Below, piece after piece: positions 857 through 22,001 of a DNA stretch of 34,299 nucleotides. The notes beneath the pieces are model-generated. The model did no database searches. It was not told the origin of the DNA and worked only from the letters and a program-made list of their open reading frames with translations. Source of the DNA: an uncultured Eubacteriales bacterium (GTDB lineage: Bacteria; Bacillota_I; Bacilli_A; RF39; UBA660); the NCBI GenBank assembly GCA_900320425.1, contig ONSF01000040.1, positions 1-34,299 on the forward strand. The letters run 5' to 3'. The position numbers and the translations under genes are program-made. Numbering within the stretch: position 1 is the stretch's first letter; each line of letters opens with the position of its first letter.

Positions 857-880
857 TTAAATTATCTTTTATTTTATTTT
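841..880. terminator. Probable bidirectional intrinsic terminator between convergent genes
   Basis: Perfect 7-bp stem GATAATT (848-854) / AATTATC (860-866) with a 5-nt loop. It is flanked by an A7 run on the left and TTTTATTTTATTTT on the right, so a T-run follows the hairpin on either strand. Confidence 0.5.
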
Positions 881-1727: not shown

Positions 1728-4700
1728 TTACTTATTGCCTTTCTTAATATAATTAATTGTAAATACAACCGTTAGTATAGAGATTGTTAAAAGTGTTATC
1801 CACATTACAATATGAGTTGAATCGCCTGTTTGAGGAGAAGAAGATTTTTTGATTTTTTGATAATAATATATTACTGTTATTTCATCTTCTGTCATTTTGC
1901 CTTCTTTATTATCAGGAATCTCAACTAATTGATAATCTTTGATGTCTTTAGGTTCTGTATTATATAAATCATTTTCGTGTCCATCTATAGTTTCAGGGTC
2001 TACCAAATCTTCATTTGTTTCTTTATCAAGATATTTTACAATTATTCTTGTCTTTTTTACATAATAATACTTAACTTCTATTTCTTCTTCCGTCATTGTT
2101 CCTTTACTATTATTTGGTAATTTATCAAGAACTAATTCATAATTTTCAAATTCTCGACTCTTTATATCATATGGATCTCCAACTTTTCCTTCATGTACTT
2201 CATTTGCTAGTATTTCATCTGTATTAATATCTATATGTTTTTCTATTACTCCTCCTGATACTTTAGAATAATAATAATTTAACACATTTTCTCCATCTTT
2301 TAAAACAATAGTTTCATTTTCTGGTTTTTCTACCAAAATATATTCTTCAAAATTCTTTGACTTTCCTGTATATCTTTGATTTATTCTACCTGTATCAGTT
2401 ACTTTTCCTAATAACTCACCAGTTTGTTTATCAATATGATTTACGATAACATCCACCTGTTTATAAACAAGTCCTGCATTTACATATCTTTCTTGTAAAT
2501 CACCTTGAGCTAATGTATTAAGTGTCTTTAAGATTCCGGTTTCTGACTGAGTTTCTATTTTGCTATTTATTTTTTTATCTTCTCCAACTTTTGGAGTTGT
2601 TACCTCATAAATTGTTGGATATTCTATTTTAACTTTATATTCAGATTTGGCAAGATTTTCAAACTTATAATAGCCAGAATTATCTGTAATTATTGGTTCA
2701 ACATCTTGTCCATTTATATCTTTAGCTTTAGCACCATTACCGGTTAATAAAGTAACTTTTACACCACTTAATTTTGATTCATTTGAATCCATCAAACCAT
2801 TTAAATTTTCGTCTAACCATACAGTTCCATCTAAACTTCTTTTTACAACTTCAATTTTTATAATTGGTGAAACCATTTCTTCTGTATCTACATTTGTTTG
2901 AACTGTTGCAGAATTATTATAAATATCTAATGGTTTGTTTCCATTTGTTTTTATAACAAATTCTACTTCAACTCTTGTTTTAGCAGGTAATGTTCCTTTT
3001 AGGGCAAACCCAGTTAAAGCTCTATTTATTGTTGTATTTGGAGTTATTTCTTGCCATTCATTTGTAGTTGCAAAATTATTATCTTTTACATTTACAGAAT
3101 TTCTTACATTAATATCTGATGATATATATAATTTTATGTCTGAATTGCTTACTTCTTCTAAAGTTGAAATATTTATATATTTTAATTTTATATTTTCAAC
3201 CACATAATTTCCACTATAGCTTGTTCCTCTTCTATCTCCAACATATGGTAAAATATCAAGCATTCTAAACGTTGTTAAATCATCATCTGTTTTATTTACT
3301 GATTTTACTATGTAATTTCCTCTATCATTTACTTCAATTACAGGTGTTTCAGTTTCTTTATGTAAATTATAACTTGCTAAATTTATCACTTGAATAGAAA
3401 TATTTGCTTGTCTATCTCTATTTTTTACATTACCTATTTTATAAGCTTCTCCAGATGATACTTCTTCCTTAACCTCAGTTATAGTTTCATATTGTGTTCC
3501 ATTGCTACTTTCTTCTGAAATATGAGCCTTATAGGTAATTGGTTCTATTTCTTGATTAATAATAGAATTTGGTTTATGCCATACAAGAGTTGTTGTTCCA
3601 TCTTGATTGTTTGTTATTTCTGGTTCTTGATAATTACTACTATTTGGTATATAAGTTAATCCTTTTGGTAAAGTTTCTTCAATTCTAACATTTACTTTTA
3701 ATGGAGTTTTTAATCTATCATTTTCTAAAATTGGACTTATTTTATATGTTGCTACTGTCTCATTTTTATCCAAATTATAATTAATTTTTTCTTTTCCATT
3801 TTCTTTATCAACGATATTTTTTTGCACTTTTAATTTTGCAGATGCAATATATAGAGAATTTCCATAATAGAATGTTGGTGCATGAGTTCCCATTTCTACC
3901 TGACCATTACTATCTATGATACTTTTTACATACTTTTGAGGATTATACATATATATTGTTGGAGTAGGATAACTATCATTTGAGTTTAAATGAGAACCAC
4001 TTATATTATCTTTCCAACCTTTAACAGTATTTGTAGCTTGATATACTTTTCCAATTTGAGCAGTATCTTTAACTTTCACTTTTACTGCATAACTTACTGC
4101 TCGACCTGGATATATTATAGCATTTCTTTCTTCATATAATATTGCAACACATACATATCCAGCATTCTTAAGTGATGCTATAGAATCAAAATATACTAAA
4201 TCTTCCTCTTTAGCATCATTCATTTCATCATCGCTGTCCCATCCTGTTTTATTTGTTTTACCAGCATACAATACTTTTAAATCTCCAATTTGAGCAAGAT
4301 TTGCTGTATTATCTCTTATATAATAGTAGGCAGATGTTGAATCCAATCCTTCCACAGGTTCTAAAGCCTCATCATCAAATTTTTGAAGTAAATTTAGACT
4401 TTTTATTTTATCTTGATTTAAGCTTGATATGTCAAAATTAGATGCAAGATAAATATCACTTCCAATTGATGCTACGGCATCTCCTCCTGACGGTGATGTT
4501 GCAAGTAGATAACTACTTCCGTACCATATTACTTGTGTTGCAGGAATACTTGTATCAACAAAATACTGATATTTATAATAAGTTCCAGGTGGTTCTAAAG
4601 GGACTAAAGAATTTACATGATTATCATTATCCTCTTTATCTATTGTAGTTGTTGCTCCAGAAATAGATGTTGCTTTAAGATTTGATAGTTCTACTTTCAT

Positions 4701-6008
4701 ATACGCACTAATTGATACTTCTGTTTCAGTTGAATATTGCATAATAGCTTGAATATATCCAGTACTAAAGAATCCTATGTTTTCTGTATACCTAACATAC
4801 GTTGCGGAATCATTAGGATTTTTAATTGGGAAAATATGGTTATATAAATCAAATTCGTAATCTTTTACTGTAACATGATATTTGTTCTTTTGAACTGTAT
4901 CTTGTACTATATTCCAATTTCCACCATTATAACAATTAGCTGTCGTTGCGGTTGTTCCAAATGCATTATATGGAACTGTGTCTCTTGCATAACGGGTAAA
5001 TTGTACACCATTCCAAAACATTCTTCTTCCATTTTTTCCAACATCAGTCAGTACATTTTCAAAATAATCCCATAAAGTTGGTATATAACCAGGTCTATTA
5101 GTTACATCCTCTCCACCTAATTGTTCACTAAGTGTAATATCAAAAGTAATATCACCCGTTGGTATTTCAATTCCTTTTAATTTTTTCGTTGTCTCTGGAT
5201 TATATAATTGTAATCCTATTCCATATCCAAGCATTGTTCCATAAATACTTGATGCCGTTGGATTTGAAACTTCATCCTTTTGTGAAAAATCAAAATGTCC
5301 TCTATAAGAAAGATAATCGTTCTTTTTTATTGTTATATTATATGATGGTGCTGCACTAACTTTAATTTTAGAATCTGTGTATTCATATGTTTCACTTTCT
5401 TGATTTCCATATAAGCTAGTAGTAAATTTAGGAGTTATTTCCAAACCATTTGGTGCTCCTAAAACCTGTAAAACATATATTAAAGTTTGTTTTCCAGGAA
5501 TTGTAACTGAATCAGTTGGCATCTTATAATATGCTGTAAAAGTTGTCCCATCACTTGATACTTTTGGATTTAACGCCCAATTCATGGAATTAACATCCCA
5601 TTTTGCATATTTTGCTTCTTCTTGCGAAATTGATGCCTTTACAGCTAACACTCCTCCACTGTAACTTACACCATCTTGTTCATTTTTTAACTGTGTGGTA
5701 TTCTCAATTGTCCACGTAATTTGATCAAAAGATCTAACTATATCGTTTTCCTCATTCATATCATTTCCTGGACTATTATCACTATCCCATGGTCCAAGTC
5801 CTGTTTGTCGCAAAACAACAGTTGATTCTTTGATGTTACCAATTTGTCCGATTTGTCTATCTGCTTCAGTTAAAGTATATTCTAACGATGCACTCGTTTT
5901 AAGTTTAAAATCTGTATATTTACTTATTCCGAGTACAATCAATAATACTAATACGACAGATAACAAAACAATTAGTGGTTTCAAATTTTCCTTAAATAAT
6001 TTTTTCAT
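1728..6008 (-). CDS. Giant (1426 aa) cell-wall-anchored surface adhesin with a C-terminal SPQTG sorting signal
   Basis: ATG at 6008 is preceded by AGGAGGAG; the ORF-track start at 6041 has no SD. Signal/TM segment is MKKLFKENLKPLIVLLSVVLVLLIVLG. There is an SdrD-B/Cna-B-like segment (DGTVWLDENLNGLMDSNE...YYKFENL) and three MucBP-like repeats. SPQTG is encoded at 1824-1838, followed by a hydrophobic helix and a KKGNK tail. Confidence 0.9.
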   Translation of the reverse strand: MKKLFKENLKPLIVLLSVVLVLLIVLGISKYTDFKLKTSASLEYTLTEADRQIGQIGNIKESTVVLRQTGLGPWDSDNSPGNDMNEENDIVRSFDQITWTIENTTQLKNEQDGVSYSGGVLAVKASISQEEAKYAKWDVNSMNWALNPKVSSDGTTFTAYYKMPTDSVTIPGKQTLIYVLQVLGAPNGLEITPKFTTSLYGNQESETYEYTDSKIKVSAAPSYNITIKKNDYLSYRGHFDFSQKDEVSNPTASSIYGTMLGYGIGLQLYNPETTKKLKGIEIPTGDITFDITLSEQLGGEDVTNRPGYIPTLWDYFENVLTDVGKNGRRMFWNGVQFTRYARDTVPYNAFGTTATTANCYNGGNWNIVQDTVQKNKYHVTVKDYEFDLYNHIFPIKNPNDSATYVRYTENIGFFSTGYIQAIMQYSTETEVSISAYMKVELSNLKATSISGATTTIDKEDNDNHVNSLVPLEPPGTYYKYQYFVDTSIPATQVIWYGSSYLLATSPSGGDAVASIGSDIYLASNFDISSLNQDKIKSLNLLQKFDDEALEPVEGLDSTSAYYYIRDNTANLAQIGDLKVLYAGKTNKTGWDSDDEMNDAKEEDLVYFDSIASLKNAGYVCVAILYEERNAIIYPGRAVSYAVKVKVKDTAQIGKVYQATNTVKGWKDNISGSHLNSNDSYPTPTIYMYNPQKYVKSIIDSNGQVEMGTHAPTFYYGNSLYIASAKLKVQKNIVDKENGKEKINYNLDKNETVATYKISPILENDRLKTPLKVNVRIEETLPKGLTYIPNSSNYQEPEITNNQDGTTTLVWHKPNSIINQEIEPITYKAHISEESSNGTQYETITEVKEEVSSGEAYKIGNVKNRDRQANISIQVINLASYNLHKETETPVIEVNDRGNYIVKSVNKTDDDLTTFRMLDILPYVGDRRGTSYSGNYVVENIKLKYINISTLEEVSNSDIKLYISSDINVRNSVNVKDNNFATTNEWQEITPNTTINRALTGFALKGTLPAKTRVEVEFVIKTNGNKPLDIYNNSATVQTNVDTEEMVSPIIKIEVVKRSLDGTVWLDENLNGLMDSNESKLSGVKVTLLTGNGAKAKDINGQDVEPIITDNSGYYKFENLAKSEYKVKIEYPTIYEVTTPKVGEDKKINSKIETQSETGILKTLNTLAQGDLQERYVNAGLVYKQVDVIVNHIDKQTGELLGKVTDTGRINQRYTGKSKNFEEYILVEKPENETIVLKDGENVLNYYYSKVSGGVIEKHIDINTDEILANEVHEGKVGDPYDIKSREFENYELVLDKLPNNSKGTMTEEEIEVKYYYVKKTRIIVKYLDKETNEDLVDPETIDGHENDLYNTEPKDIKDYQLVEIPDNKEGKMTEDEITVIYYYQKIKKSSSPQTGDSTHIVMWITLLTISILTVVFTINYIKKGNK
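1854..2456 (-). repeat. Three tandem MucBP-like protein repeats (about 66-68 aa each) inside the adhesin
   Basis: Three units share the pattern V..H.D..T.E.L......G.....Y......F..Y.LV........G.......E....YYY.K. They fall at approximately aa 1185-1385 of the 1426-aa protein, directly before the sorting signal. Confidence 0.7.
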
Positions 6009-6031
6009 TATCTTATCTCCTCCTATTATTA

Positions 6032-6040
6032 AGTATAACA
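6032..6040 (-). promoter_or_regulatory. Candidate extended -10 (TGTTATACT) for the adhesin-sortase operon
   Basis: The reverse complement of 6032-6040 reads TGTTATACT. It lies about 24 nt upstream of the ATG at 6008 and just downstream of the preceding terminator. Confidence 0.35.
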
Positions 6041-6042
6041 TA

Positions 6043-9727: not shown

Positions 9728-10612
9728 TCATTCGCTTATATTCAAAGCTTCTATAATTCGATTAAAATCGTTTAAATCTTGAAAATTAATCTCTATTTTA
9801 GTTCCACGAATTCTAACCTTCGTTCCTAATCTATCACAAAGAAGTTCTTGAACATATTTATAGGTTTTATTTTCTTCTGTTTCACGTCTTTCCATTTTAT
9901 TACGTTTTTCAAATGATTTATCTTGTGTTAATTCTTCAATTGCTGCTGTAGTTAATCCTTCATTAATTATTCTATCAGCAATTTCTTCTACTTTACTAGG
10001 ATCTTTTATTTTACTTAATGTTCTTGCATGAGTTGCTGATATTTTTCTAGCAATAACTAAATCTTTAACAGAATCTGGAAGATTCATAAGTCCTACCATA
10101 TTGGTAACATAACTACGACTTTTTCCAATACGTTCAGCAAGTTGTTCATGACTAAGTCCACGGGATTCCATCAATTTTTGATAAGCCATTGCTTCTTCTA
10201 TTGGATTTAAATCTTCTCTTTGTAAATTTTCAAGTAAAGCAATCTCCATCATTTCTTGATCATTAAAATTACGAATAATTGCTGGTATAGTTTCTCTTCC
10301 TGCTAATTTACTAGCTTTAGCTCTTCTTTCTCCTGCAACAATTTCATAGCCTTTAATACTATTTTTAACAATAATAGGTTGAAATACACCATGTTCTTTT
10401 ATACTACTGGCAAGTTCAGAAAGAGCTGTCTCATCAAAAACCTTTCGTGGTTGATAAGGATTACTTCTTAATTCATCAAGTCTTATTTGACGAATTTCTT
10501 CTTTAGGCGTTTCTTCAACAATTTTTTCTTCTAAGGTATCAAAATCTAAAACCTCAGCACCAAATAATTCTTCAAGGCCACGTCCAAGTGCCCTTCTTCT
10601 AGCAGTTTCCAT
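9728..10612 (-). CDS. parB: Chromosome partitioning protein ParB/Spo0J
   Basis: RALGRGLEELF start, NPYQPRK, GERRAKAS arginine patch (CTP-binding fold), LENLQREDLNPIEEA, and an HTH LSHEQLAERIGKSRSYVTN. Its start overlaps the parA stop. Confidence 0.95.
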   Translation of the reverse strand: METARRRALGRGLEELFGAEVLDFDTLEEKIVEETPKEEIRQIRLDELRSNPYQPRKVFDETALSELASSIKEHGVFQPIIVKNSIKGYEIVAGERRAKASKLAGRETIPAIIRNFNDQEMMEIALLENLQREDLNPIEEAMAYQKLMESRGLSHEQLAERIGKSRSYVTNMVGLMNLPDSVKDLVIARKISATHARTLSKIKDPSKVEEIADRIINEGLTTAAIEELTQDKSFEKRNKMERRETEENKTYKYVQELLCDRLGTKVRIRGTKIEINFQDLNDFNRIIEALNISE

Positions 10613-11384
10613 TTCTCATAATCACTTCCTTTGCTAAATTTATATAGGCTTCAGAGCCTTTACTTTTGGGGTCATAAGATACAATTGGTTTTCCATGGCT
10701 TGGAGCTTCTGCTAATCTAATTAATCTAGGAATAATTGTATCATAAACCTTATCTTTAAAATAACTTCGAATTTCTTCTATCACATCAAGTCCTAAATTT
10801 GATTTAGAAAGCATTGTAAGAAGTACTCCTTCTAAATCTAAATTTGGATTTAAATTCTTTTGAGTTAACATGATAGTATTAAGTAATTGAGTAATTCCTT
10901 CTAGTGCAAAAAATTCACATTGAACTGGAATTAAACAAGAATTACTTGCTGCTAAAGCATTCGTTGTAATATTTCCAAGACTTGGAGGACAATCAATAAT
11001 AATATAATTATATTTATCTTGAATGGATTCTATTTTTTCTTTTAATTGATATGCTCTTTTAAAATTAGGATCATTTTTACTTTTTTCAATAAATTCAATA
11101 TCAATTCCAGCAAGTTGAATAGTTGAAGGAATAATATCCAGATTTTTAAAATCAGTTTTTATAACAACTTCTTCTACTTTACATCCTCCACGAAGCAAAT
11201 CATAAACACTATATTTAATATCTCCTTTATTTACACCAACTCCTGTAGTTGCATTTCCTTGAGGATCTAAATCTATTAATAATATCTTCTTTCCTAGTAA
11301 AGCAAGAGAGGCAGATAAGTTAATACTAGTTGTGGTTTTTCCTACACCACCTTTTTGATTTACTAATGAAATAATTTTTCCCAT
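10599..11384 (-). CDS. parA: Chromosome partitioning ATPase ParA/Soj
   Basis: Deviant Walker A NQKGGVGKTTT, DLDPQGNAT, IIIDCPPSLG. ATG at 11384 is preceded by AAAGGTGG. The ORF-track start at 11426 is a 14-aa over-extension without an SD. Confidence 0.95.
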   Translation of the reverse strand: MGKIISLVNQKGGVGKTTTSINLSASLALLGKKILLIDLDPQGNATTGVGVNKGDIKYSVYDLLRGGCKVEEVVIKTDFKNLDIIPSTIQLAGIDIEFIEKSKNDPNFKRAYQLKEKIESIQDKYNYIIIDCPPSLGNITTNALAASNSCLIPVQCEFFALEGITQLLNTIMLTQKNLNPNLDLEGVLLTMLSKSNLGLDVIEEIRSYFKDKVYDTIIPRLIRLAEAPSHGKPIVSYDPKSKGSEAYINLAKEVIMRNGNC

Positions 11385-11484
11385 GATTACCACCTTTTCT
11401 ATACGTTGATATTTATATTTTATCAAAAAAGAATAAAATAGGGAAGATGATTTCTAAAAATTAAGAAAAAAACCGATTTTTTAA

Positions 11485-13770
11485 TCAGTTTTCTTGCTTT
11501 TTGATTTTAATCGTAATTTGATAAACATCGTCAAAATCAATTTCTTCTGTTTCAATATCAATATGGTTTTGTTTAATTCTATCAGTTGTTTTCTTTAATT
11601 CTAATACTGCATCACGTGTTGTATGCATAGTTATTTCAGGTTCTAAAGTTATATATTCATTATTGTTTTTATCTGTTGAGGATTCTTCCATTGGTAAAGT
11701 TACCTCATTATCTCCAATTATTTCAATTTCTGGTACTCCGGAAATTTCTTTAGTATCTTCTAAATCATTATGTTCCTCTAAAGATTGATTGTCATTTGTT
11801 ATTTCTTTATCTACATTACCTTCATTTTCGTTTAATTCAACCGGAACCGGATTTACATTTAATATTTTTTCATAATCATCATCTAATGGATTATCAAACT
11901 TCTCCTGATTTATATTGCTATCATTATCATTAAAATTCATATTATTTTGAATTGGTTGACTAGTATTTGAATATTCAGAAGTTGACATTTGGTTTGGGTT
12001 TGATATCTCTGAATTTTCTAATCCGTTATATGAATATGTATTATTAACATTCTGTTCCACATAATTATTTTCCATTTGATGTGGAACATCTACAATATTA
12101 AGAGGTTGATTAAATAAATTACCTTCTTTGGGATTATAATTATTACTCATTCCATTAAAATCAGGAATTGCACCATTATTATTACCATGAAAATTATTAT
12201 AATTTTCAAAGTTACTCATTGAAAATTCATTACTAGACATTGAATTATAATTATTTATATTATTATTTAAATCATTTTTAAAAGAATAATCATTGTTTGG
12301 CATATTATTCATCATATTATTATTATCATTCGTTGAATTCAATGAGTAATTAAAATCATTAAAATTTCCAAAAGTATTCATATTGTTACCTTGATATTGG
12401 TTATTGTTTTGTGGTTCAAATTGATTAAAAGAATTCATTCCCATATCCATATTTTTATTATTGGAAACATAATTTCTATTCATTGCATCATTAAATGAAT
12501 TCATATCTGAATTAAATCCATTATTACTAGCACTATAGTTATTTCCTATATTATTCATTGATTCAAAATTATTCATCATAGAATTATTGAATCCTTGATT
12601 AAAACTATTTGACTCATCAAATTTATTAAATGCTTCACGACTTCCGTTCGAATCATCACTATCTACTAAAAAATTATTTCCATTATTCTTATTAAAATCA
12701 TCAAAATTTGGTAAAAACTGATTTTCTTTTTGTGGAACATTATCTTCTCTAATATGACTAACAAATAAATTAGAGTTGTTATTATTAATATTATTTGAAA
12801 CATAATTTGGTGTACTTTGTCCAAGTCCTCCATCAAACATAGAACCTAGGGATGAAGGTTGAGAAGAAACTGGTGATGAATTATAATTAAAATTGTCGTT
12901 TACAGCTTGAGTAGAAGCATTCATATTTCCTTCCTCATTAAATGCACTATAATCAAATGAATTATTATTGGTATTTTGAGTATTATTAGGCATATTATTA
13001 AAATTATTTGGAATATTATTAAACATGTTATTTTGAATTCCACTTTGATAATCGTTAAGTCCCATTCCTCCAAAATTTCCTAAATTATTATTCATATTAT
13101 TTTCCTCCCTTTTTATTTCTTTTATTTCTCCTGATGCATCACCAGATTCACTATCTAAATTTTCTTTATATTTTTTTATTTCTGCATCTAGTTCTCGAAC
13201 AGTCAATCTTTCTGTCCTAATTCTATTTAAAAAATCTAATTGATCTTTTTTATTACTAACTGTTAATAAACTTCTTGCATGACGTTCAGATATTTGATTT
13301 TTAATCAGTGCATTTTGTACTTCTTCCGGAAGCGACAAAAGTCTTAATTTATTTGCTATCATTGGTTGACTTCTTCCCATTGTTCTAGCTAAATCCTCTT
13401 GAGTCATATTATCAAGTTCAAGAATTCTTTTATAAGTTCTTGCTTCTTCAATTGCACTTAAGTTTTTTCTTTGTAAATTTTCCAGAAGTGATACTTTAGC
13501 ACTTTCTTTATCATCCATATTTTTTATTATCGCCGGAATCGTTGTAAGACCTGCAATAGCTGATGCTTTACTTCGTCTTTCTCCAGCAATTAGTTCATAT
13601 TTATCTCCAATTTGTCTTACAATAATTGGTTGAATTACACCATGTTCTTTTATACTATCTGCAAGTTCTTCAAGTCCTGTTTCATCAAAAACCTCTCTAG
13701 GTTGAAACCTATTTGGTATAATATCATCAAGTCTTAAATATACTACTTTTTCTTCTTCAGTATCACCCAT
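11485..13770 (-). CDS. noc: Noc-like ParB-family protein carrying a very long Asn-rich low-complexity insertion (761 aa)
   Basis: aa 1-205 are colinear with remembered B. subtilis Noc (IPNRFQPR, HG.IQPI.VR, IAGERR, IPAIIKN..DKE, LENLQR, ANKLRLL.LP.EVQ.AL, ERHAR.L). The C-terminal EEIDFDDVYQITIKIKK resembles the Noc C-terminus. nt 11899-13104 encode an N/S/F/M/G-rich tract. Its position between rsmG and parA is the canonical noc slot. Confidence 0.85.
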   Translation of the reverse strand: MGDTEEEKVVYLRLDDIIPNRFQPREVFDETGLEELADSIKEHGVIQPIIVRQIGDKYELIAGERRSKASAIAGLTTIPAIIKNMDDKESAKVSLLENLQRKNLSAIEEARTYKRILELDNMTQEDLARTMGRSQPMIANKLRLLSLPEEVQNALIKNQISERHARSLLTVSNKKDQLDFLNRIRTERLTVRELDAEIKKYKENLDSESGDASGEIKEIKREENNMNNNLGNFGGMGLNDYQSGIQNNMFNNIPNNFNNMPNNTQNTNNNSFDYSAFNEEGNMNASTQAVNDNFNYNSSPVSSQPSSLGSMFDGGLGQSTPNYVSNNINNNNSNLFVSHIREDNVPQKENQFLPNFDDFNKNNGNNFLVDSDDSNGSREAFNKFDESNSFNQGFNNSMMNNFESMNNIGNNYSASNNGFNSDMNSFNDAMNRNYVSNNKNMDMGMNSFNQFEPQNNNQYQGNNMNTFGNFNDFNYSLNSTNDNNNMMNNMPNNDYSFKNDLNNNINNYNSMSSNEFSMSNFENYNNFHGNNNGAIPDFNGMSNNYNPKEGNLFNQPLNIVDVPHQMENNYVEQNVNNTYSYNGLENSEISNPNQMSTSEYSNTSQPIQNNMNFNDNDSNINQEKFDNPLDDDYEKILNVNPVPVELNENEGNVDKEITNDNQSLEEHNDLEDTKEISGVPEIEIIGDNEVTLPMEESSTDKNNNEYITLEPEITMHTTRDAVLELKKTTDRIKQNHIDIETEEIDFDDVYQITIKIKKQEN

Positions 13771-13811
13771 TTACATCCCTCTTTCTTTTATTTCCCTTTT
13801 AATATATTTAC

Positions 13812-13820
13812 ATTATATCA
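13812..13820 (-). promoter_or_regulatory. Extended -10 promoter element TGATATAAT upstream of the noc-like gene
   Basis: The reverse complement reads TGATATAAT, about 42 nt upstream of the ATG at 13770 and downstream of the rsmG hairpin. Confidence 0.5.
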
Positions 13821-13873
13821 CATTTTTTTTAAATACAATCATTTTTTTCTCTTTTCCTTATAAAAAGTAATTT

Positions 13874-16464: not shown

Positions 16465-16902
16465 TCACTTCCTTTTGCTTTTTAATTCAAGGTCTTTTAT
16501 TTTTTTTAAATATTCGAAACATTTATTTTTATATTCATTTAATATTAAATCTACTTTAATCTCTTCTAATTCATCTCTTGTTGTAACTCTTCTTATACTA
16601 TCAATTATTTTTCCTCTTTCATCAATTAAATAATTTAGCATCTTTTTAAGTTCAAATAAATTTAAATTTACAACATCAATTTCATCTACCATCCAATGTT
16701 GATTATTTATAAAGAAAAAAGAAATGTCATCCGAAAATTTATAAAATTTTTCTAAATTTTCATTTTCTCTTAAATCTAATAAAACCTTAATTGTTTCTGG
16801 CATTGGCAATTCTAATTTTTTTATTGTTTCTAATTCTATTCCTTGAATTTGATAAGTTCTTTCCATTTTGCCATTTTTTTCAATTGATACTAATTTTCTC
16901 AT
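16465..16902 (-). CDS. Hypothetical 145-aa soluble protein embedded between mnmE and mnmG
   Basis: The ATG at 16902 lies 4 nt after the mnmE TGA (16907-16909). Its own TGA at 16465-16467 lies 4 nt before the mnmG GTG, and the mnmG SD is inside its 3' end. No TM segment and no recognised motif. Confidence 0.6.
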   Translation of the reverse strand: MRKLVSIEKNGKMERTYQIQGIELETIKKLELPMPETIKVLLDLRENENLEKFYKFSDDISFFFINNQHWMVDEIDVVNLNLFELKKMLNYLIDERGKIIDSIRRVTTRDELEEIKVDLILNEYKNKCFEYLKKIKDLELKSKRK

Positions 16903-16906
16903 TTTA

Positions 16907-18259
16907 TCACTTCCCAACACAAAAATTTTTAAATAAATCATCTAATAATTCTTCATCATATGAATCTCCGGTAATAAATCCAAGTTGTTCCCAAATCTCT
17001 CTTAAATCCATTTCTAACATATCAAGTTCTAAATCATCGTTTATTCCTTCTTCTATATCACTTATAATTTTTAAACATTCTTTAATTTTATTTATCTGTC
17101 TTAAATTTGTAATATAATTAAAATCACTATTATTTATTTTATCTAACTGAAATAAATCTCTAATCTTTTCTTTTAGAATTTTGATTTCTTTATTATCAAG
17201 AGTATTTATTGAAATAACATTAGATAAATTCTTATCTAACTTAATTTTAGTTTCTAAATCATTTTTATTTACAACATAAATCGTTGTTTTATATTTAGTT
17301 TTATCAATTAAGATTTTATCTTCTTCTGTTAACTCTTCATTATTATTTAAAAGTAATAAAACTAAATTTGCTGATTCAATTGTTTCTATACTTTTATTTA
17401 CACCAATTTTTTCTACAATATCATCAGTTTCTCTGATTCCTGCTGTATCTATAATATTTAATTTCACTCCATCAAGATACATTATTCCTTCAACTATATC
17501 ACGAGTTGTTCCTGGAATATCAGTAACAATTGCTTTTTCACTATTAAGTAATTTATTTAGTAAACTACTTTTTCCGACATTTGGACGACCAATAATTGCT
17601 ACTTTAATTCCTTCATGAATTAATTTTGATTGTTCATAATTTTCAACAATTTCTTCTAACTCATTTTTTATTAATGGAATCTTTTCTCTTATATCATTTA
17701 TAGTTACTTCATAAATATCTTGATATTCTGGGTAATCAATATTTACTTCAATATTACTAATTATTTTTATTAACTCATCTCTTAATTTTTTTATTAAAGA
17801 ACTAATATTTCCTTTAATTCCATTTATAGCAACTTTTCTTTCAAGTTCAGTTTCGGAATTAATTAAATCGGATACAGCTTCAGCTTCAACTAAATCAATT
17901 CTTCCATTTAAAAATGCACGTTTTGTAAATTCTCCAGGTTCTGCAAGACGACACCCATTTAAAAGTAAGAGTTCTAATACTTTATTAGTTGTTGCAATAC
18001 CACCATGACAATTAATTTCAACAACATCTTCCATAGTATAAGTTTTAGGACTTTTCATGACACTTACTAATACTTCATCAATAATATTTTCTTTATCTTT
18101 TATATATCCATAATGAATAGTATGACTTTCTACTTTTTCTAAATCATGTCCTTGAAATAATTTATTAACTATAGATATACTATCATTTCCACTAACTCTT
18201 ATAATTGATATTGCACCAACTCCAAGAGAAGTTGCAATACTTGCTATAGTATCGTTCAT
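16907..18259 (-). CDS. mnmE: tRNA modification GTPase MnmE (TrmE/ThdF)
   Basis: DTIASIAT, RVSG, GRPNVGKSSLLN G1 motif, DTAGIR, NK.DL, and the C-terminal FCVGK tetrapeptide. Confidence 0.97.
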   Translation of the reverse strand: MNDTIASIATSLGVGAISIIRVSGNDSISIVNKLFQGHDLEKVESHTIHYGYIKDKENIIDEVLVSVMKSPKTYTMEDVVEINCHGGIATTNKVLELLLLNGCRLAEPGEFTKRAFLNGRIDLVEAEAVSDLINSETELERKVAINGIKGNISSLIKKLRDELIKIISNIEVNIDYPEYQDIYEVTINDIREKIPLIKNELEEIVENYEQSKLIHEGIKVAIIGRPNVGKSSLLNKLLNSEKAIVTDIPGTTRDIVEGIMYLDGVKLNIIDTAGIRETDDIVEKIGVNKSIETIESANLVLLLLNNNEELTEEDKILIDKTKYKTTIYVVNKNDLETKIKLDKNLSNVISINTLDNKEIKILKEKIRDLFQLDKINNSDFNYITNLRQINKIKECLKIISDIEEGINDDLELDMLEMDLREIWEQLGFITGDSYDEELLDDLFKNFCVGK

Positions 18260-18336: not shown

Positions 18337-19059
18337 TCATTTTGTTTTAGAATTTATATAAGAAATATCTTTATATAGCTTAATTTGCTGATTTAATAAA
18401 TTTATTTGTTTATCGATATCTTTCCTTATTTCAAAAAATTTTTTCATATCTTTTAATAATTCTAATTCACGATTAAATTCATTTTTGTTATTTTCATTTT
18501 CTTGTTTCATTAAAGCATCAATTAAAATTAAAGTTTTATACTTTATATTTTGGAGAAGTAAATTATTTTGTAAAACACTATTATTTTCTTCACTTTGAAT
18601 AATTTTACCTAATTGATAAGGAATATCTTCATAAAAAACCTTTAATAATTCTAAAATTGAAATATTTTTTTTATATTTAGTTAATTTTAAATAGTTACTA
18701 TCATAAAAATAAAATAACATTGCATACTCACTTAGAGTAAATCCTAAATTTATTAAAGTATGCATAACTTTAGCATCTAATATATTTCCTTCAATTTTTT
18801 TATTCAAATCAAAACTTATATCAAGATAAATATCTAAATAATCAAATCTAAGAAGTTCTATAATACTTTTTAAATGCTTTGCTCCTTTTTTATTAAAATC
18901 ATTTAAATAACCACTATCATATAAAAGAAATAAATCTTCTAATGTATTAGTGTTTTCAAATTTTAAAATATCCATAAAAATATCGTATTCTAAAAACTTA
19001 ATAGGTAAATCTTTATAAATATTAATATCTCTAAACTTACTGTAATCATTTTCTTTCAT
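18337..19059 (-). CDS. Hypothetical 240-aa helical protein with a C-terminal coiled-coil-like tail
   Basis: Good SD (AAAGGAG) before the ATG at 19059. No TM segment. The tail NRELELLKDMKKFFEIRKDIDKQINLLNQQIKLYKD looks heptad-like. No family recognised. Confidence 0.6.
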   Translation of the reverse strand: MKENDYSKFRDINIYKDLPIKFLEYDIFMDILKFENTNTLEDLFLLYDSGYLNDFNKKGAKHLKSIIELLRFDYLDIYLDISFDLNKKIEGNILDAKVMHTLINLGFTLSEYAMLFYFYDSNYLKLTKYKKNISILELLKVFYEDIPYQLGKIIQSEENNSVLQNNLLLQNIKYKTLILIDALMKQENENNKNEFNRELELLKDMKKFFEIRKDIDKQINLLNQQIKLYKDISYINSKTK

Positions 19060-19124: not shown

Positions 19125-20231
19125 CTATTTACTTTCAATTATTATTAAAGGAACATACATTTCTTTTTTTGTAAAACCTGCATGATTTGCTTTAAAATGT
19201 GACGGCGTTTCATCATATATTAAAGATTTATTAGTTATTCCAATTAATAAATAATCCCCAATTGCATCTCTTAAATATTTACTATCATACATACCAAATA
19301 TATGATTATCTATAACTTCATCGGTTGTCATTAACAAGAAATCTTTTTCTAAGTATTCTTTATAAATTGATATAAATTCTTCTATATTATTTTTATTTTT
19401 TAATTTCAATCCACATGCTCTTGGTTCAATTGATGTTGTTCTTTCCAACATATTATATAGTTTTGGAATTTCTCTTTTTATATTTATACTTTTATTTGAT
19501 ATTAATCCATGATCTGCAGTTATTAATAATAAAGTATCTTTTAAATTATTTGATAATTCTTTTATTTTATCATTTATAATTTCAACTTCATCTTTTACTA
19601 TTTTAGAATATATTCCATAGTGATGCATTAATTTATCAGGATTTTCTATATATGCATATATAAATTTTTTAGAATCTTCTTTACATAATTTTTTTATTCT
19701 TTCTATAACTTCATCTAAATTTAAACATTTATTATCTTTTGAAAAAGGATAGGCATAGTAAGCCGAATTGGGATGTTTTTCGTTTATCAATTCTATAATA
19801 CTTTTATATTGCATATATTTTTTATCTAAAATTTTTTTCAAACTATCTTTATTACTATCTTTAATTTTATTTAAAAATAAAGATACGGTTTCATTAGTAT
19901 CTTTAAAATACATATCCCATCCAAACCAATGATGCTCCGATGGAGAAAGTCCAGAGAGTAGAGTAGTAGTTGCAGCTGCTGTAGTAGGAGGAAAAACACT
20001 TGATATATTTAATATTTGTTGTTGTCTAAAAAAGCTATTTTTAGGTAATAGCTCTTTTAAATTATAATATCCTAGTCCATCACATACTAACAATACTACA
20101 TTTTTATATTTATTCTTATTTAAAATATTATCTAATTCTTTTAATGTATTATGAACATTCAATACACCAAAATATTTTAAAATAGAATTAGATAAATTTA
20201 CTATATTATTCTTTTCATAATTTACTTCCAT
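19125..20231 (-). CDS. Alkaline-phosphatase-superfamily enzyme (nucleotide pyrophosphatase/phosphodiesterase- or PglZ-like)
   Basis: Complete AP-superfamily metal and nucleophile signature: VLLVCDGLG, FPPTTAAATTTLLSGLSPSEHHWFGW (Thr nucleophile region), YIENPDKLMHHYG, LITADHG, and a late ANHAG. Confidence 0.75.
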   Translation of the reverse strand: MEVNYEKNNIVNLSNSILKYFGVLNVHNTLKELDNILNKNKYKNVVLLVCDGLGYYNLKELLPKNSFFRQQQILNISSVFPPTTAAATTTLLSGLSPSEHHWFGWDMYFKDTNETVSLFLNKIKDSNKDSLKKILDKKYMQYKSIIELINEKHPNSAYYAYPFSKDNKCLNLDEVIERIKKLCKEDSKKFIYAYIENPDKLMHHYGIYSKIVKDEVEIINDKIKELSNNLKDTLLLITADHGLISNKSINIKREIPKLYNMLERTTSIEPRACGLKLKNKNNIEEFISIYKEYLEKDFLLMTTDEVIDNHIFGMYDSKYLRDAIGDYLLIGITNKSLIYDETPSHFKANHAGFTKKEMYVPLIIIESK

Positions 20232-20235
20232 ATTT

Positions 20236-21147
20236 TTAACTCCTTACTAATTTTTTTTGTTTTTCTTTTTCTTTTTTAGGAAAAATTTCATCCAATTTAT
20301 ATACATAAATTTTAAATTTTTCTAATAAATTAATAGTTTCTTCTAAGGGATTTGCAAATATTGCTTTTAATATAGATTCACTTTTGGTAAATAATCCTTC
20401 TAAAAGAAATAAAATATCCTCGGTTATACTTGCTTGTCCAAGTAATCGAATACAAAAAATTACTTTATTTTCTGGAATATCATAATTTTCCCATTTACAG
20501 TAATTCATTAGATTATTAATAAATTTATTTACTGAATAAAAACAGTTTTCTAATATAACTTCATCACTCATGGGAACTGCATGATAATTAAATTCATAAT
20601 TATCTTTTGTTACGTCCCATGTTAAATAGCGATATTCACCTTTTTTAAGCATATCTATACAATAATTTAATCCTTCATGAGCATTTACTAATTCATCTAA
20701 ATTATATCTTATATCCTGAAATCTTTTCAAGGTATCTTTTCCATATACTATCCTATAATTTGTTCCATATTGATATTTATGTGTAACCGGTAAAAAGTCA
20801 TCCATTTGATCTTTAGTGTGTATCATAGCATGTATTAAAACATTCTTTTTATTTTTTGATACTTTATGATTTACTGGTCCAACCAAAGTCGAATATCCAA
20901 CTTCTATATCTTTTGTAGTTAATTTTTTAGATAATTCTTTTAAAAATTTCTCAAAATTAAGAAGTTTTTTGGAATTAACTTCATTACAAATTACTCTAAT
21001 ATCATAATCATTATCCATTCTATCTTGATAATCATCTTTTGCCATTGATCCTACTACAAAAATTGTCTCCATATCCATATCAGATAAAAAATATTTTAAA
21101 AATTCATTATCAATTCTTTTTGTAATACTTTTTAATTCATTCGTCAT
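20236..21147 (-). CDS. Pol-beta-superfamily nucleotidyltransferase with an uncharacterised helical C-terminal domain
   Basis: IFVVGSMAKDDYQDRMDNDYDIRVI matches the GS...DxD minimal NTase signature. The preferred start is ATG 21147, 8 nt after GGAGG. The ORF-track ATG at 21162 lies only 5 nt after the TATAAT box. The stop TAA is 4 nt from the downstream ATG, whose SD lies inside this gene. Confidence 0.65.
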   Translation of the reverse strand: MTNELKSITKRIDNEFLKYFLSDMDMETIFVVGSMAKDDYQDRMDNDYDIRVICNEVNSKKLLNFEKFLKELSKKLTTKDIEVGYSTLVGPVNHKVSKNKKNVLIHAMIHTKDQMDDFLPVTHKYQYGTNYRIVYGKDTLKRFQDIRYNLDELVNAHEGLNYCIDMLKKGEYRYLTWDVTKDNYEFNYHAVPMSDEVILENCFYSVNKFINNLMNYCKWENYDIPENKVIFCIRLLGQASITEDILFLLEGLFTKSESILKAIFANPLEETINLLEKFKIYVYKLDEIFPKKEKEKQKKLVRS

Positions 21148-21183
21148 TTTTTTTGCCTCCATAAAACATTATAGAGACTTTAA

Positions 21184-21245: not shown

Positions 21246-22001
21246 TTATTCTTCTCTTAAACATACTTTATCATATGTTTCTATCCATTTTTCTAATGTA
21301 GTAATATCATTTGCTTTTTCGATAGTTATTTCTTGACCATTATATTTTATTTCATAAGTTCTATTTATTTCGTCATTTTTGTGTTTTTCGTATTCTTCTT
21401 GATTTTCTTTTAATTCTTTATTTTTTTCATTTTCACAATTTATATCTAAACGTTGAAAGAAATAACAAGATGAGGTTTTATCATAACAATCTCCAAATGA
21501 ACCAGTATCAATAAATACTCTATTGTTTTTTAATCTTATATTACTGTATTGTGCATCTTCTACACCATTATCATTAACTATAATTTCTTTTTCATCTAAA
21601 TTATATACTTTATATTTATCACCTGATTGTCCTGCTGAATAAGGAAAAATTATTAGATTATCTGCAACACTAACTTCGTACTTATTTCTTCCGTCAGATT
21701 TTCCAATTTCATGATCATTTAAATATATTTTATCATCTTTTCTTTTTAATTTTATTTTTTTATCTTCTATTGTTACCTCTTTTTCTTCACCTTCTTCAAG
21801 TTCATATTTTGTTAATTCAGTAAACAAAACTTCATTATTATCTTCTGTTTCCGTTTGTGTTTGTTCTGTTTTTTCATTTGTTGTTTTATTTCCAACATAT
21901 GTCATCTTGAACATAAAATAAAATATAGATACTAAACATATTACTAAAAATAAAATTATTCCAACCATTAATCCCTTATTATTCTTTTTTTCTTCTTCCA
22001 T
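21246..22001 (-). CDS. Hypothetical membrane-anchored (N-in, single TM) extracytoplasmic protein
   Basis: TM anchor LMVGIILFLVICLVSIFYFMF, a T/E/Q-rich linker, and a domain of about 180 aa with five Cys. SD AAAGGTAGGA precedes the ATG. No family recognised. Confidence 0.6.
   Translation of the reverse strand: MEEEKKNNKGLMVGIILFLVICLVSIFYFMFKMTYVGNKTTNEKTEQTQTETEDNNEVLFTELTKYELEEGEEKEVTIEDKKIKLKRKDDKIYLNDHEIGKSDGRNKYEVSVADNLIIFPYSAGQSGDKYKVYNLDEKEIIVNDNGVEDAQYSNIRLKNNRVFIDTGSFGDCYDKTSSCYFFQRLDINCENEKNKELKENQEEYEKHKNDEINRTYEIKYNGQEITIEKANDITTLEKWIETYDKVCLREE

What the first reader, a model, noticed from the sequence alone, without database searches (positions are those of the whole stretch)
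11485..13770. Noc/ParB-family protein split by an Asn-rich prion-like linker of about 400 residues, and lacking the Noc membrane-targeting helix
Seen in sequence:
- The gene in the canonical noc slot encodes 761 aa, against roughly 280 aa for B. subtilis Noc.
- Residues 1-205 are a complete ParB/Noc N-terminal CTPase-fold plus HTH (IAGERRSKAS, LENLQR, ERHARSLL).
- The last ~40 residues (EEIDFDDVYQITIKIKKQ) look like the Noc C-terminal end.
- Between them, nt 11899-13104 encode about 400 residues dominated by N with S/F/M/G/Q/Y, for example NNMFNNIPNNFNNMPNNTQNTNNNSF. An acidic tract of about 90 aa follows.
- The frame stays open throughout, so this is not a pseudogene.
- The N-terminus (MGDTEEEK) is acidic.

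Established knowledge: B. subtilis Noc uses a basic amphipathic N-terminal helix for membrane recruitment. ParB-family proteins act as CTP-gated clamps and form higher-order assemblies.

Inference: an N-rich disordered spacer between the DNA-binding and dimerisation modules could change bridging or condensate behaviour and could replace membrane tethering. The null hypothesis is neutral AT-bias-driven expansion of the linker.
Basis: partly seen in the sequence, partly recalled or inferred. Interest (0 to 1): 0.65.

Follow-up and report, generated by a model that had tools for sequence, protein, structure and literature searches.

The report
Noc-type clamp with giant disordered linker
An uncultured rumen bacterium encodes a Noc-like DNA-clamp protein that lacks the usual membrane-anchoring helix and has a real, roughly 500-residue asparagine-rich disordered linker carrying conserved short motifs, so the linker is probably functional, though what it binds is unknown.

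Summary
ORF 11485-13770 (-) encodes 761 aa: a ParB_N + HTH_ParB module (aa 8-202), a disordered linker of about 500 aa (27% Asn, 3% Lys+Arg, net charge -54), and a Noc-like C-terminal domain.

It is not an assembly artefact. The identical protein sits on 11 contigs, and two runs from different studies each give one contig matching 11400-13850 without a difference.

It is Noc-type:
- Its best solved-structure and NCBIfam matches are Noc.
- Three of the four Noc DNA-specificity residues are present (Q-K-S-R, against QKKR in Noc).
- Eleven relatives carry a perfect canonical Noc-binding site, and this organism's own contig carries a 1-mismatch site.
- The N-terminal membrane-targeting helix is missing in all 80 relatives examined.

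The new result is that the linker is not featureless. Six to seven short motifs (MGLNDYQS, SLGSMFDG, SxIRED, NQFLPNF, LFNQPLNIV, DNPxDDxYExIL, EIEIIG) keep a fixed order across about 99 homologue clusters (541-824 aa). They are separated by Asn-rich spacers that cannot be aligned and vary in length.

AT bias contributes to the Asn content but cannot explain the motifs, the Lys depletion or the evenly spaced aromatic residues.

Most likely this is an NBS-loading CTP clamp whose linker acts as a motif-bearing tether for unknown partners. Condensate or prion behaviour is untested. I rate it a new variant of a known kind.

The parts
11485..13770 (-). Whole ORF of 761 aa plus stop codon: a Noc-type ParB-family protein.
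   Evidence: One search gives the ORF. The identical protein is on 11 contigs from several samples. Single contigs in runs X1 and X2 match 11400-13850 with 0 differences.
13471..13749 (-). ParB N-terminal (CTPase-fold) domain, aa 8-100, with GERRSKA and LENLQRKNL boxes.
   Evidence: Pfam PF02195, 110.8 bits. Box motifs are conserved in all relatives. AF2 pLDDT is 74-92 per 10-residue block.
13165..13467 (-). ParB HTH DNA-binding domain, aa 102-202. The specificity positions are Q135, K141, S146 and R163.
   Evidence: Pfam PF17762, 106.6 bits. Residues were mapped through the 7OL9 alignment onto the Noc QKKR / ParB RTAG positions of PMC7383237. All relatives that the pattern scan could parse (43 of 81) have Q-K-x-R, with x nearly always small (S/A/T/G).
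11644..13146 (-). Intrinsically disordered linker, aa ~209-709.
   Evidence: AF2 pLDDT is 30-48 with no secondary structure over aa 212-709. There is no Pfam hit. Composition: 27% N, 3% K+R, 14% D+E, 10% F+Y, net charge -54.
11905..13131 (-). Asn-rich (Q/N-rich) core of the linker, aa 214-622.
   Evidence: At least 30 Q/N per 80 aa throughout, maximum 36. The other ORFs of the window reach at most 20.
12994..13074 (-). Motif M1, aa 233-259: F..MGLNDYQS...NNxPNNFNNM.
   Evidence: M236, G237, L238, D240 and Y241 are invariant in 59 sequences. The regex is present in 98 of 99 long homologue clusters.
12829..12852 (-). Motif M2, aa 307-314: SLGSMFDG.
   Evidence: At least 90% conserved in alignment A1. 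Present in 90 of 99 clusters. There is a local pLDDT rise at aa 308-312.
12700..12771 (-). Motifs M3+M4, aa 334-357: NLFVSHIREDN....ENQFLPNFD.
   Evidence: S338, F352, P354 and N355 are invariant. M4 is in 96 of 99 clusters and M3 in 69 of 99. A profile of M2-M4 found only this family among 1.84 billion representatives.
12082..12123 (-). Motif M5, aa 550-563: GNLFNQPLNIVDVP.
   Evidence: G550, F553 and L557 are invariant. Present in 79 of 99 clusters.
11842..11895 (-). Motif M6, aa 626-643: DNPLDDDYEKILNVNPVP, at the start of the acidic part.
   Evidence: The consensus DNPxDDxYENILFAKPVP appears in A1. A strict regex matches 49 of 99 clusters.
11713..11730 (-). Motif M7, aa 681-686: EIEIIG.
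   Evidence: Seen in the alignment of close relatives. Present in 55 of 99 clusters. This is the weakest of the motifs.
11488..11655 (-). C-terminal (dimerisation-type) domain, aa 706-761: Y706...TRDAVLELKKTTDRIKQN...EEIDFDDVYQITIKIKK.
   Evidence: Many invariant columns in A1. With the linker removed, the protein aligns to TIGR04285 through model position 255. AF2 predicts a helix at aa 718-734 with pLDDT 56-66.
10599..11426 (-). Downstream soj/parA gene (ParA-type ATPase), given as context.
   Evidence: Pfam AAA_31, CbiA and ParA.
9728..10612 (-). Downstream spo0J/parB paralogue, with ParB-type specificity residues R/M/N/T and the N-terminal LGRGLEELF peptide.
   Evidence: Residues were read from the sequence against the positions in PMC7383237.
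13910..14608 (-). Upstream rsmG (gidB), which defines the canonical noc slot.
   Evidence: PF02527 GidB.

Best explanation
This is the Noc orthologue of an uncultured, low-GC rumen lineage of Bacilli. Noc is the NBS-binding, CTP-gated ParB-family DNA clamp. Two changes set this lineage's version apart from B. subtilis Noc.

1. The N-terminal membrane-targeting helix is absent throughout the wider clade.
2. The normally short tether between the DNA-binding domain and the C-terminal dimerisation domain has grown into an acidic, disordered linker of about 500 residues that is rich in Asn and aromatic residues.

The linker is a string of six to seven conserved short linear motifs in fixed order, separated by fast-evolving spacers of variable length.

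Proposed mechanism:
- The N-terminal module (aa 1-205) loads at NBS-type sites and closes into a CTP clamp, as in Noc and ParB.
- The C-terminal ~56 aa hold the dimer together.
- The linker acts as a long flexible arm that presents its motifs to one or more unidentified partner proteins. This probably substitutes for the lost direct membrane contact.
- The evenly spaced Phe/Tyr residues among Asn/Ser/Gly spacers may add weak multivalent self-association.
- The Asn richness of the spacers is largely a by-product of AT mutational bias acting on weakly constrained sequence.

Shown here: domain identity, disorder, motif conservation, absence of the helix, presence of NBS sites, and that the assembly is real.

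Inferred: CTP clamping, partner recruitment, any link to cell division, and any condensate behaviour.
For: Identity as Noc-type:
- Pfam ParB_N + HTH_ParB.
- TIGR04285 nucleoid_noc is the best NCBIfam hit, at 282.8 bits. The adjacent ParB paralogue scores 233.6.
- The best solved structures are Noc: 7NFU at 198.9 bits and 7OL9 at 177.3, against Spo0J at about 165.
- The gene sits in the rsmG-noc-soj-spo0J order.
- The specificity residues are Q135/K141/S146/R163, against QKKR in Noc and RTAG in ParB.

DNA sites:
- A perfect 16-bp NBS lies in the mnmE-mnmG spacer of 11 related genomes, with 0 expected by chance.
- A 1-mismatch NBS lies on this organism's own contig; 0 of 100 shuffles reach it.

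The gene is real:
- The identical 761-aa protein is on 11 contigs.
- Contigs with zero differences occur in two runs from different studies.

Disorder: AF2 pLDDT is 30-48 over aa 212-709, against mostly 83-94 in the N-terminal module.

Constraint in the linker:
- Invariant motif residues occur across 59 sequences.
- The motifs are present in fixed order in 49-98 of 99 clusters, depending on the motif: M1 98, M4 96, M2 90, M5 79, M3 69, M7 55, M6 49.
- Lys+Arg is 3% in the linker, against about 10% Lys in the other ORFs.
- Aromatic residues are more evenly spaced than in shuffles in 58 of 58 homologues, mean z -1.97.
- Long linkers (at least 285 aa) persist in all 99 clusters.

Helix loss: the N-terminus aligns from Noc residue 24, and 15-23 residues precede NxFQPR in nearly all relatives, against 40 in B. 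subtilis Noc. The B. subtilis figure comes from my own knowledge of that sequence.
Against: - No partner is identified. The M2-M4 profile hits no other protein family among 1.84 billion representatives, so there is no shared docking motif to point to a hub protein.
- AF2 shows no docking of any motif onto the folded domains.
- The protein scores below NCBIfam's Noc cut-off even with the linker removed: 289.9 against 315.
- One of the four Noc specificity residues differs (S in place of K).
- No NBS lies within the 34-kb window itself.
- The only site found in this organism has one mismatch and lies inside a coding sequence (dnaX).
- The motifs of short-linker relatives are not detectably related to those of this clade.
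- Evidence of expression is a single 217-nt metatranscriptome contig.
- Linker Asn% follows genomic AT content (rho -0.64), so much of the composition needs no functional explanation.
Confidence: 0.6

Rival explanations
1. Neutral expansion. The linker is only a passive tether whose length and Asn content drifted upward under AT mutational bias and replication slippage. It adds no function beyond connecting the two modules.
For: - Linker Asn% correlates with local GC (rho -0.64), and linker length correlates with Asn% (rho 0.57).
- Linker identity to the nearest species is 42-54%, with 100-240 gapped residues, against 78-88% for the N-terminal module.
- All six strain-level substitutions in P0121 fall in the linker.
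- The linker has no Pfam domain and no predicted structure.
Against: - Six to seven motifs with invariant residues keep a fixed order across 59-99 homologues.
- Lys, whose AAA codon is the most AT-rich, is depleted about threefold relative to the other ORFs.
- Aromatic spacing is non-random in 58 of 58 homologues.
- Lineages with the same 24-28% GC keep linkers of 129-221 aa with 9-16% Asn.
- There is no DNA tandem-repeat structure.
Confidence: 0.2
2. Condensate or prion-like scaffold. The Q/N-rich, aromatic-studded linker drives phase separation or amyloid-like assembly of DNA-bound clamps. These bulky assemblies would occlude the divisome without needing membrane attachment.
For: - The linker passes the criterion of at least 30 Q/N in 80 residues over about 400 aa, maximum 36.
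- About 10% Phe+Tyr, more evenly spaced than random in every homologue. From my own knowledge (Martin et al. 2020), this pattern is associated with phase-separating prion-like domains.
- ParB proteins are described as condensate-forming clamps (abstract of 10.1101/2024.06.25.600654).
- There is a precedent for an Asn-rich prion-like domain in a low-GC Firmicute NTPase: Clostridium botulinum Rho (PMC4703818).
Against: - The net charge of -54 with almost no basic residues disfavours self-association on its own.
- The conserved motifs look like specific docking sites rather than generic stickers.
- No experiment or dedicated predictor was run.
- Composition alone gives many false positives in AT-rich genomes.
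Confidence: 0.15
3. Not a Noc at all. It would be a second ParB-type partition or other DNA-binding paralogue whose function is unrelated to nucleoid occlusion or NBS sites.
For: - It scores below the curated TIGR04285 cut-off.
- It lacks the membrane-targeting helix that B. subtilis Noc needs for full nucleoid occlusion activity (PMC8429893).
- NCBI names relatives only 'ParB/RepB/Spo0J family partition protein'.
Against: - Gln at the position where parS-specific proteins invariably have Arg.
- Canonical NBS sites in relatives and a near-canonical one in this organism.
- A separate ParB-type paralogue is encoded two genes downstream.
- The best structural matches are Noc.
Confidence: 0.04
4. 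Assembly artefact or pseudogene. The low-complexity tract would be a mis-join or collapsed repeat.
For: Short-read assemblies often break in such DNA. Many close homologues in the database are truncated at 212-236 aa on short contigs.
Against: - The identical 761-aa product is on 11 contigs from different samples and assemblies.
- Single contigs at depth 21 and 32 in two runs from different studies match with 0 differences and 0 gaps.
- A third run tiles the region with 5 substitutions.
- The frame is open in 99 homologue clusters of 541-824 aa.
Confidence: 0.01

Closest known systems
Noc (nucleoid occlusion protein) of Bacillus subtilis and Geobacillus thermoleovorans (PDB 7OL9, 7NFU, 7NG0, 6Y93; NCBIfam TIGR04285)
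   Same: - ParB_N CTPase fold with GERR and ENLQR boxes.
- HTH DNA-binding domain with Noc-type Q, K and R at three of the four specificity positions.
- A C-terminal domain ending ...EEIDFDDVYQITIKIKK.
- The gene slot rsmG-noc-soj-spo0J.
- Canonical NBS sites in related genomes.
   Different: - No N-terminal amphipathic membrane-targeting helix and no helix alpha2.
- The linker is about 500 aa rather than a few tens, and it carries its own conserved motifs.
- Ser replaces Lys at the third specificity position.
- The score is below the TIGR04285 cut-off.
Chromosomal ParB/Spo0J (for example B. subtilis Spo0J 6SDK, Thermus 1VZ0)
   Same: The same three-module plan (N-terminal CTPase domain, HTH, C-terminal dimerisation domain joined by a flexible linker) and the same CTP-clamp motifs.
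   Different: - Gln rather than the invariant Arg at the parS-reading position.
- No N-terminal LGRGL ParA-interacting peptide; that peptide is present in the window's true ParB at 9728-10612.
- A far longer linker.
Short-linker Noc-like proteins of uncultured gut Bacilli / 'Tenericutes' MAGs (CAG-710, CAG-417, Candidatus Onthousia and others)
   Same: - 67-75% identical N-terminal module.
- The same lack of the N-terminal helix.
- The same Q-K-x-R residues (x nearly always small).
- The same C-terminal domain and a disordered acidic linker.
   Different: - Linkers are only 87-310 aa, with 3-21% Asn and more Lys/Arg.
- They carry a different motif set (PKFINYG, IDINxIKxNAxDI, ADLDSLLxh, FKFFxP) that hhalign does not relate to the window's motifs.
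Asn-rich prion-like insertion domain of Rho in Clostridium botulinum and other low-GC bacteria (PMC4703818, PMC11347177)
   Same: An Asn-rich low-complexity region of variable length, placed within a conserved nucleic-acid-binding NTPase of a low-GC bacterium. This is an analogy only.
   Different: - A different protein family and a different position in the protein.
- The Rho domain has been tested for amyloid or prion behaviour. The present linker has not, and it is much longer, acidic and motif-bearing.
FtsZ C-terminal linker plus conserved C-terminal peptide (from my own knowledge)
   Same: A disordered tether whose length and sequence vary widely between species while short docking peptides are conserved. 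This is a functional analogy for 'variable spacer plus conserved short motif'.
   Different: It is an unrelated protein. It has one terminal motif rather than six or seven internal ones, and its partners are known.

Membership tests
Noc (nucleoid occlusion protein, ParB family) | ParB/Srx-type N-terminal CTP-binding domain with GERRxRA and ENLQR boxes | tested here: met
   PF02195, 110.8 bits. GERRSKA and LENLQRKNL are present, with Lys in place of the third Arg, as in all relatives and in the adjacent ParB.
Noc (nucleoid occlusion protein, ParB family) | HTH domain carrying the four NBS-specificity residues Q158/K164/K169/R186 (B. subtilis numbering; PMC7383237) | tested here: inconclusive
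   Q135, K141 and R163 match. Position 146 is Ser rather than Lys. The paper reports that R/K prevail at this position among NBS-specific variants, so three of four are met.
Noc (nucleoid occlusion protein, ParB family) | Cognate NBS sites (TATTTCCCGGGAAATA) in the genome | tested here: inconclusive
   There is none in the window with up to 3 mismatches. One 1-mismatch site lies on the same organism's contig, inside dnaX (L087 16584-16599; 0 of 100 shuffles). Perfect sites occur in 11 related genomes. The whole genome is not available.
Noc (nucleoid occlusion protein, ParB family) | N-terminal amphipathic membrane-targeting helix (aa 1-10) followed by helix alpha2 | tested here: not met
   The alignment to 7OL9 starts at Noc residue 24. 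A stop codon abuts the ATG. The helix is absent in all 80 relatives.
Noc (nucleoid occlusion protein, ParB family) | Score above the curated NCBIfam TIGR04285 cut-off (315 bits) | tested here: not met
   282.8 bits for the native protein and 289.9 bits with the linker removed. It is still the top-scoring family.
Noc (nucleoid occlusion protein, ParB family) | Gene position immediately downstream of rsmG (gidB) and upstream of soj-spo0J | tested here: met
Noc (nucleoid occlusion protein, ParB family) | Nucleoid occlusion activity, CTP-dependent clamping and membrane recruitment of DNA | not testable with these tools
   This needs biochemistry and cell biology.
Canonical chromosomal ParB (Spo0J) | Arg at the parS-reading position (Caulobacter R173), which is invariant in parS-specific proteins | tested here: not met
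   Gln135 occupies this position. The neighbouring paralogue at 9728-10612 has Arg.
Prion-like / Q/N-rich domain | At least 30 Q+N within 80 consecutive residues (Michelitsch-Weissman criterion, from my own knowledge) | tested here: met
   A maximum of 36. The criterion is met across aa 214-622.
Prion-like / Q/N-rich domain | Self-templating aggregation or phase separation | not testable with these tools
   PLAAC and IUPred were not available. Only composition, AF2 disorder and aromatic patterning were computed.

The most novel reading that the evidence does not exclude
In this lineage nucleoid occlusion, or another chromosome-to-envelope coupling, has been rewired. Instead of a CTP-released amphipathic helix touching the membrane, NBS-loaded Noc clamps would use a 300-570-residue disordered arm. 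The arm's conserved short motifs would dock onto a divisome or membrane protein, and its evenly spaced aromatic residues would promote clustering. That would be a protein-mediated, possibly condensate-assisted mode of Noc action not described for any ParB-family member.
Probability: 0.2. Interest if true: 0.8.

Novelty: new variant of a known kind. Interest (0 to 1): 0.55.

Why it matters
In B. subtilis, Noc needs its N-terminal membrane-targeting helix for full nucleoid occlusion activity, and CTP controls that helix (PMC8429893). Here a whole clade of gut and rumen Bacilli keeps the Noc DNA-reading residues and canonical NBS sites but has no helix. One sub-clade has instead built a linker of 300-570 residues with conserved docking-type motifs.

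This raises a concrete, testable question: what does an NBS-bound CTP clamp do when it cannot touch the membrane directly, and what do the motifs bind?

It is also a clean natural case for separating selected short motifs from mutation-driven low-complexity spacers in a bacterial disordered region.

The limitation is that the organism is uncultured, so tests would have to be heterologous.

Tried and rejected
- DNA tandem repeats as the source of the tract: only scraps of 2-4 copies of 12- or 21-nt units. Rejected.
- Pfam on the isolated linker and on the C-terminal domain: no meaningful hit.
- NBS and parS in the window: none at up to 2-3 mismatches beyond chance. NBS sites were found only after I extended to related loci and to the organism's own contig.
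- Homology between the long-linker motifs (SLGSMFDG...NQFLPNF) and the short-linker motifs (DLDSLL...FKFFxP): it looked plausible by eye, but hhalign gives probability 0.14%. Rejected.
- Looking for the M2-M4 motif cluster in other protein families, to get a hint of a shared partner: the profile search of 1.84 billion representatives returned only this family and its fragments, plus two unrelated weak repeat proteins. A regex scan of about 75 kb of the organism's DNA found the motifs only in this gene.
- An amphipathic, basic membrane-binding segment elsewhere in the protein: the hydrophobic-moment scan did not discriminate, since the B. subtilis helix itself scores low on this scale. The linker has almost no basic residues.
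- AF2 docking of motifs onto the folded domains: none, only small local pLDDT rises at the motif cores.
- Promoter and terminator scan: not above shuffles in this AT-rich DNA.
- Transcript evidence: one 217-nt metatranscriptome contig over the N-terminal domain. Too thin to claim expression.
- Resemblances of M1 and M2 to the Noc N-terminal FFGLG or the ParB LGRGL peptides, and of the relatives' DLDSLL motif to the FtsZ C-terminal peptide: considered from memory only, not supported by any test, and not claimed.
Full report
**What is there**

The minus-strand ORF 11485..13770 encodes 761 aa. A TAA stop lies directly before its ATG, so no longer N-terminus is possible in this frame. Pfam finds ParB_N (aa 8-100) and HTH_ParB (aa 102-202) and nothing else. 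The isolated linker has no Pfam hit.

The gene order is mnmE, a small ORF, mnmG, rsmG, this gene, soj, spo0J, DUF951. All lie on the minus strand of a window with about 26% GC. The GC skew switches near 25 kb, next to rpmH, dnaA and dnaN, so this is the chromosomal origin region.

**The composition claim holds**

- Residues 214-622 have 16-40% Asn per 50-aa window. They meet the criterion of at least 30 Q/N in 80 residues throughout, with a maximum of 36.
- Residues ~623-705 are 24-34% Asp+Glu.
- The other 24 ORFs of the window average 7.4% Asn and never exceed 20 Q/N per 80 aa.
- Tandem Repeats Finder sees only scraps, so this is compositional bias and not a repeat array.

**It is not an artefact**

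- The identical 761-aa product is called on 11 contigs from several rumen samples and assemblies.
- In two runs from different studies, a single contig (depth 21 and 32) matches 11400-13850 with no substitution or gap.
- A sheep-gut run tiles the region with five substitutions.
- A 99%-identical strain variant has six substitutions and no indel. All six are in the linker.
- These are contigs, not raw reads, and no long reads were examined.

**What family it belongs to**

- The best NCBIfam hit is nucleoid_noc (TIGR04285) at 282.8 bits. The adjacent ParB paralogue scores 233.6.
- With the linker removed, the alignment runs through the whole model (positions 1-255) at 289.9 bits. That is still below the curated cut-off of 315.
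- The best solved structures are Noc: 7NFU at 198.9 bits and B. subtilis 7OL9 at 177.3. Spo0J and ParB score about 165.
- I mapped the four specificity residues of Jalal et al. (Noc QKKR against ParB RTAG; PMC7383237) through the 7OL9 alignment. The window protein has Q135, K141, S146 and R163.
- In that paper, parS-specific proteins have an invariant Arg at the first of these positions, so a parS-specific reading is excluded. The neighbouring paralogue at 9728-10612 has R/M/N/T and the LGRGLEELF N-terminal peptide, which makes it the true ParB.
- All 80 relatives have Q-K-x-R, with x nearly always small (S/A/T/G).

**Binding sites**

- The window has no NBS or parS beyond chance.
- In 664 kb of related loci, the most recurrent GC-containing palindrome is the perfect canonical NBS, TATTTCCCGGGAAATA. 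It is present in 11 genomes, always in the non-coding spacer between mnmE and mnmG, with none expected by chance. All 11 are short-linker relatives.
- I walked outward along the organism's own 73-kb contig and found TATTTCCCGAGAAATA (one mismatch) inside dnaX, about 2.7 kb beyond the right end of the window. It is present in two samples, and 0 of 100 shuffles reach it.
- The clade's proteins are therefore Noc-type DNA readers. For this organism the evidence is one near-canonical site.

**The missing helix**

Window residue 3 aligns with residue 24 of B. subtilis Noc. The membrane-targeting helix alpha1 and helix alpha2 are therefore absent. B. subtilis Noc needs that helix for full nucleoid occlusion activity (PMC8429893).

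This is a clade-wide trait. In nearly all of the 80 relatives, only 15-23 residues precede the NxFQPR motif.

**The linker in context**

Relatives from uncultured gut and rumen 'Bacilli/Tenericutes' MAGs all have a disordered linker between the HTH and a conserved C-terminal domain, but its length runs from 87 to 566 aa.

- Species 78-88% identical in the N-terminal module carry linkers of 314-505 aa with 22-27% Asn.
- More distant species (67-75% identical) carry 87-310 aa with 3-21% Asn.
- A full-length search found 99 clusters of 541-824 aa.

**The main new result**

An alignment of close relatives shows islands of near-identity inside otherwise unalignable sequence. In a 59-sequence alignment the following holds:

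- Invariant: M236, G237, L238, D240, Y241, S338, F352, P354, N355, G550, F553, L557 and Y706.
- At least 90% conserved: SLGSM.D (aa 307-313), I340, E342, N350, L353, F356 and Q555-I559.

Simple patterns for the motifs occur in the same order at varying spacing. Out of 99 clusters, the counts are:

| Motif | Sequence | Clusters |
|---|---|---|
| M1 | MGLNDY | 98 |
| M2 | SLGSMFD | 90 |
| M3 | SxIRED | 69 |
| M4 | NQFLPNF | 96 |
| M5 | LFNQPLNIV | 79 |
| M6 | DNPxDDxYExIL | 49 |
| M7 | EIEII | 55 |

AlphaFold2 run with this alignment gives mostly pLDDT 83-94 for aa 11-200, and 30-48 with no secondary structure for aa 212-709. The only linker residues that reach 50 sit at the motif cores.

**How much is AT bias?**

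Evidence that AT bias contributes:

- Linker Asn% falls as local GC rises (rho -0.64).
- The linker is 42-54% identical to the nearest species, with 100-240 gapped residues. The N-terminal module is 78-88% identical.
- The spacers therefore look weakly constrained and shaped by mutation.

Evidence that AT bias is not the whole story:

- Lys, encoded by AAA, makes up about 10% of the other ORFs, but Lys+Arg is only 3% of the linker.
- Lineages with the same GC keep short linkers with 9-16% Asn.
- Phe and Tyr are more evenly spaced than in shuffles in 58 of 58 homologues, mean z -1.97.
- The motifs are conserved.

**Function**

I could not identify a partner.

- A profile of M2-M4, searched against 1.84 billion representative proteins, returned only this family: 13 clusters, plus two unrelated weak hits.
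- The motifs occur nowhere else in about 75 kb of the organism's DNA.
- The motif set of the short-linker relatives (PKFINYG, IDINxIKxNAxDI, ADLDSLLxh, FKFFxP) is not detectably related to the long-linker set (hhalign probability 0.14%).
- The linker's net charge is -54 and it has almost no basic residues, so direct binding to anionic lipid is unlikely.

My best reading is an NBS-loading CTP clamp whose long disordered arm presents docking motifs to unidentified partners. This would most plausibly replace the lost direct membrane contact, with possible weak multivalent self-association. The CTP clamp step and everything downstream are inferred from the family, not shown here.

**Verdict**

The Noc family assignment and the helix loss hold. 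Purely neutral expansion is refuted by the motifs. Prion or condensate behaviour is untested.
- It fails two membership criteria for Noc in the strict sense (the helix and the curated score), but it reads like a Noc on DNA.
- I rate it a new variant of a known kind, of moderate to good interest to the ParB/Noc field.

Noticed in passing
L013 1326-1341; also L015 1368, L016 1340, L018 1318, L019 1154, L028 1236, L032 1316, L033 1338, L048 1297, L063 1230, L073 1068: A perfect canonical 16-bp Noc-binding site, TATTTCCCGGGAAATA, sits in the non-coding mnmE-mnmG spacer of 11 different short-linker relatives. It is the most recurrent GC-containing palindrome in 664 kb of loci. L026 has a 2-mismatch copy at the same place.
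   Followed up: yes
L087 16584-16599 (same contig as the window, about 2.7 kb beyond its right end); L088 16583-16598: A one-mismatch NBS (TATTTCCCGAGAAATA) lies inside the dnaX coding sequence of the window organism, in two samples. None is expected by chance.
   Followed up: partly
window 16465-16941 (-): A 158-aa ORF without any Pfam hit fills the mnmE-mnmG spacer and overlaps the 3' end of mnmE by 35 nt. This is exactly where relatives carry the conserved NBS.
   Followed up: no
window 9728-10612 (-) and all related loci: A ParB-type paralogue (R/M/N/T at the specificity positions, LGRGLEELF N-terminal peptide) is present. Even so, no canonical parS (up to 1 mismatch) occurs in the window or in 664 kb of origin-proximal loci from 81 genomes. 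parS may be diverged or located elsewhere.
   Followed up: partly
window 28641-29135 (+): A ComK-family ORF (PF06338 on the corresponding called gene) lies between dnaN and recF.
   Followed up: no
window 869-1657 (-) and 1728-6041 (-): A sortase lies next to a 1437-aa MucBP/SdrD_B surface protein. This suggests the organism is a walled Gram-positive with an adhesin, not a wall-less mollicute.
   Followed up: no
window 19125-20231 (-) and 20236-21162 (-): A phosphodiesterase/PglZ-like ORF and a weak Polbeta nucleotidyltransferase-like ORF lie between mnmE and the jag/yidC genes. Two flanking ORFs (18337-19059 and 21246-22001) have no Pfam hit.
   Followed up: no
window 24292-25314 (-): A 340-aa ORF with no Pfam family on record lies between rpmH and dnaA, at the GC-skew switch.
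   Followed up: no
Relatives L018-L084 (linker regions): Short-linker relatives carry their own conserved linker motifs (PKFINYG, IDINxIKxNAxDI, ADLDSLLxh, FKFFxPxEE). Motif-bearing linkers are therefore a clade-wide property, with lineage-specific motif sets.
   Followed up: partly
window 13771-13776 (-): A two-codon ATG-TAA mini-ORF abuts the start codon of the noc-like gene.
   Followed up: no
window 12258 (run X8): One low-depth sheep-gut contig (5.8 of 14.9) carries an extra A here, which would shift the frame. It is most likely cross-mapping from another species' low-complexity DNA, or an assembly error.
   Followed up: no
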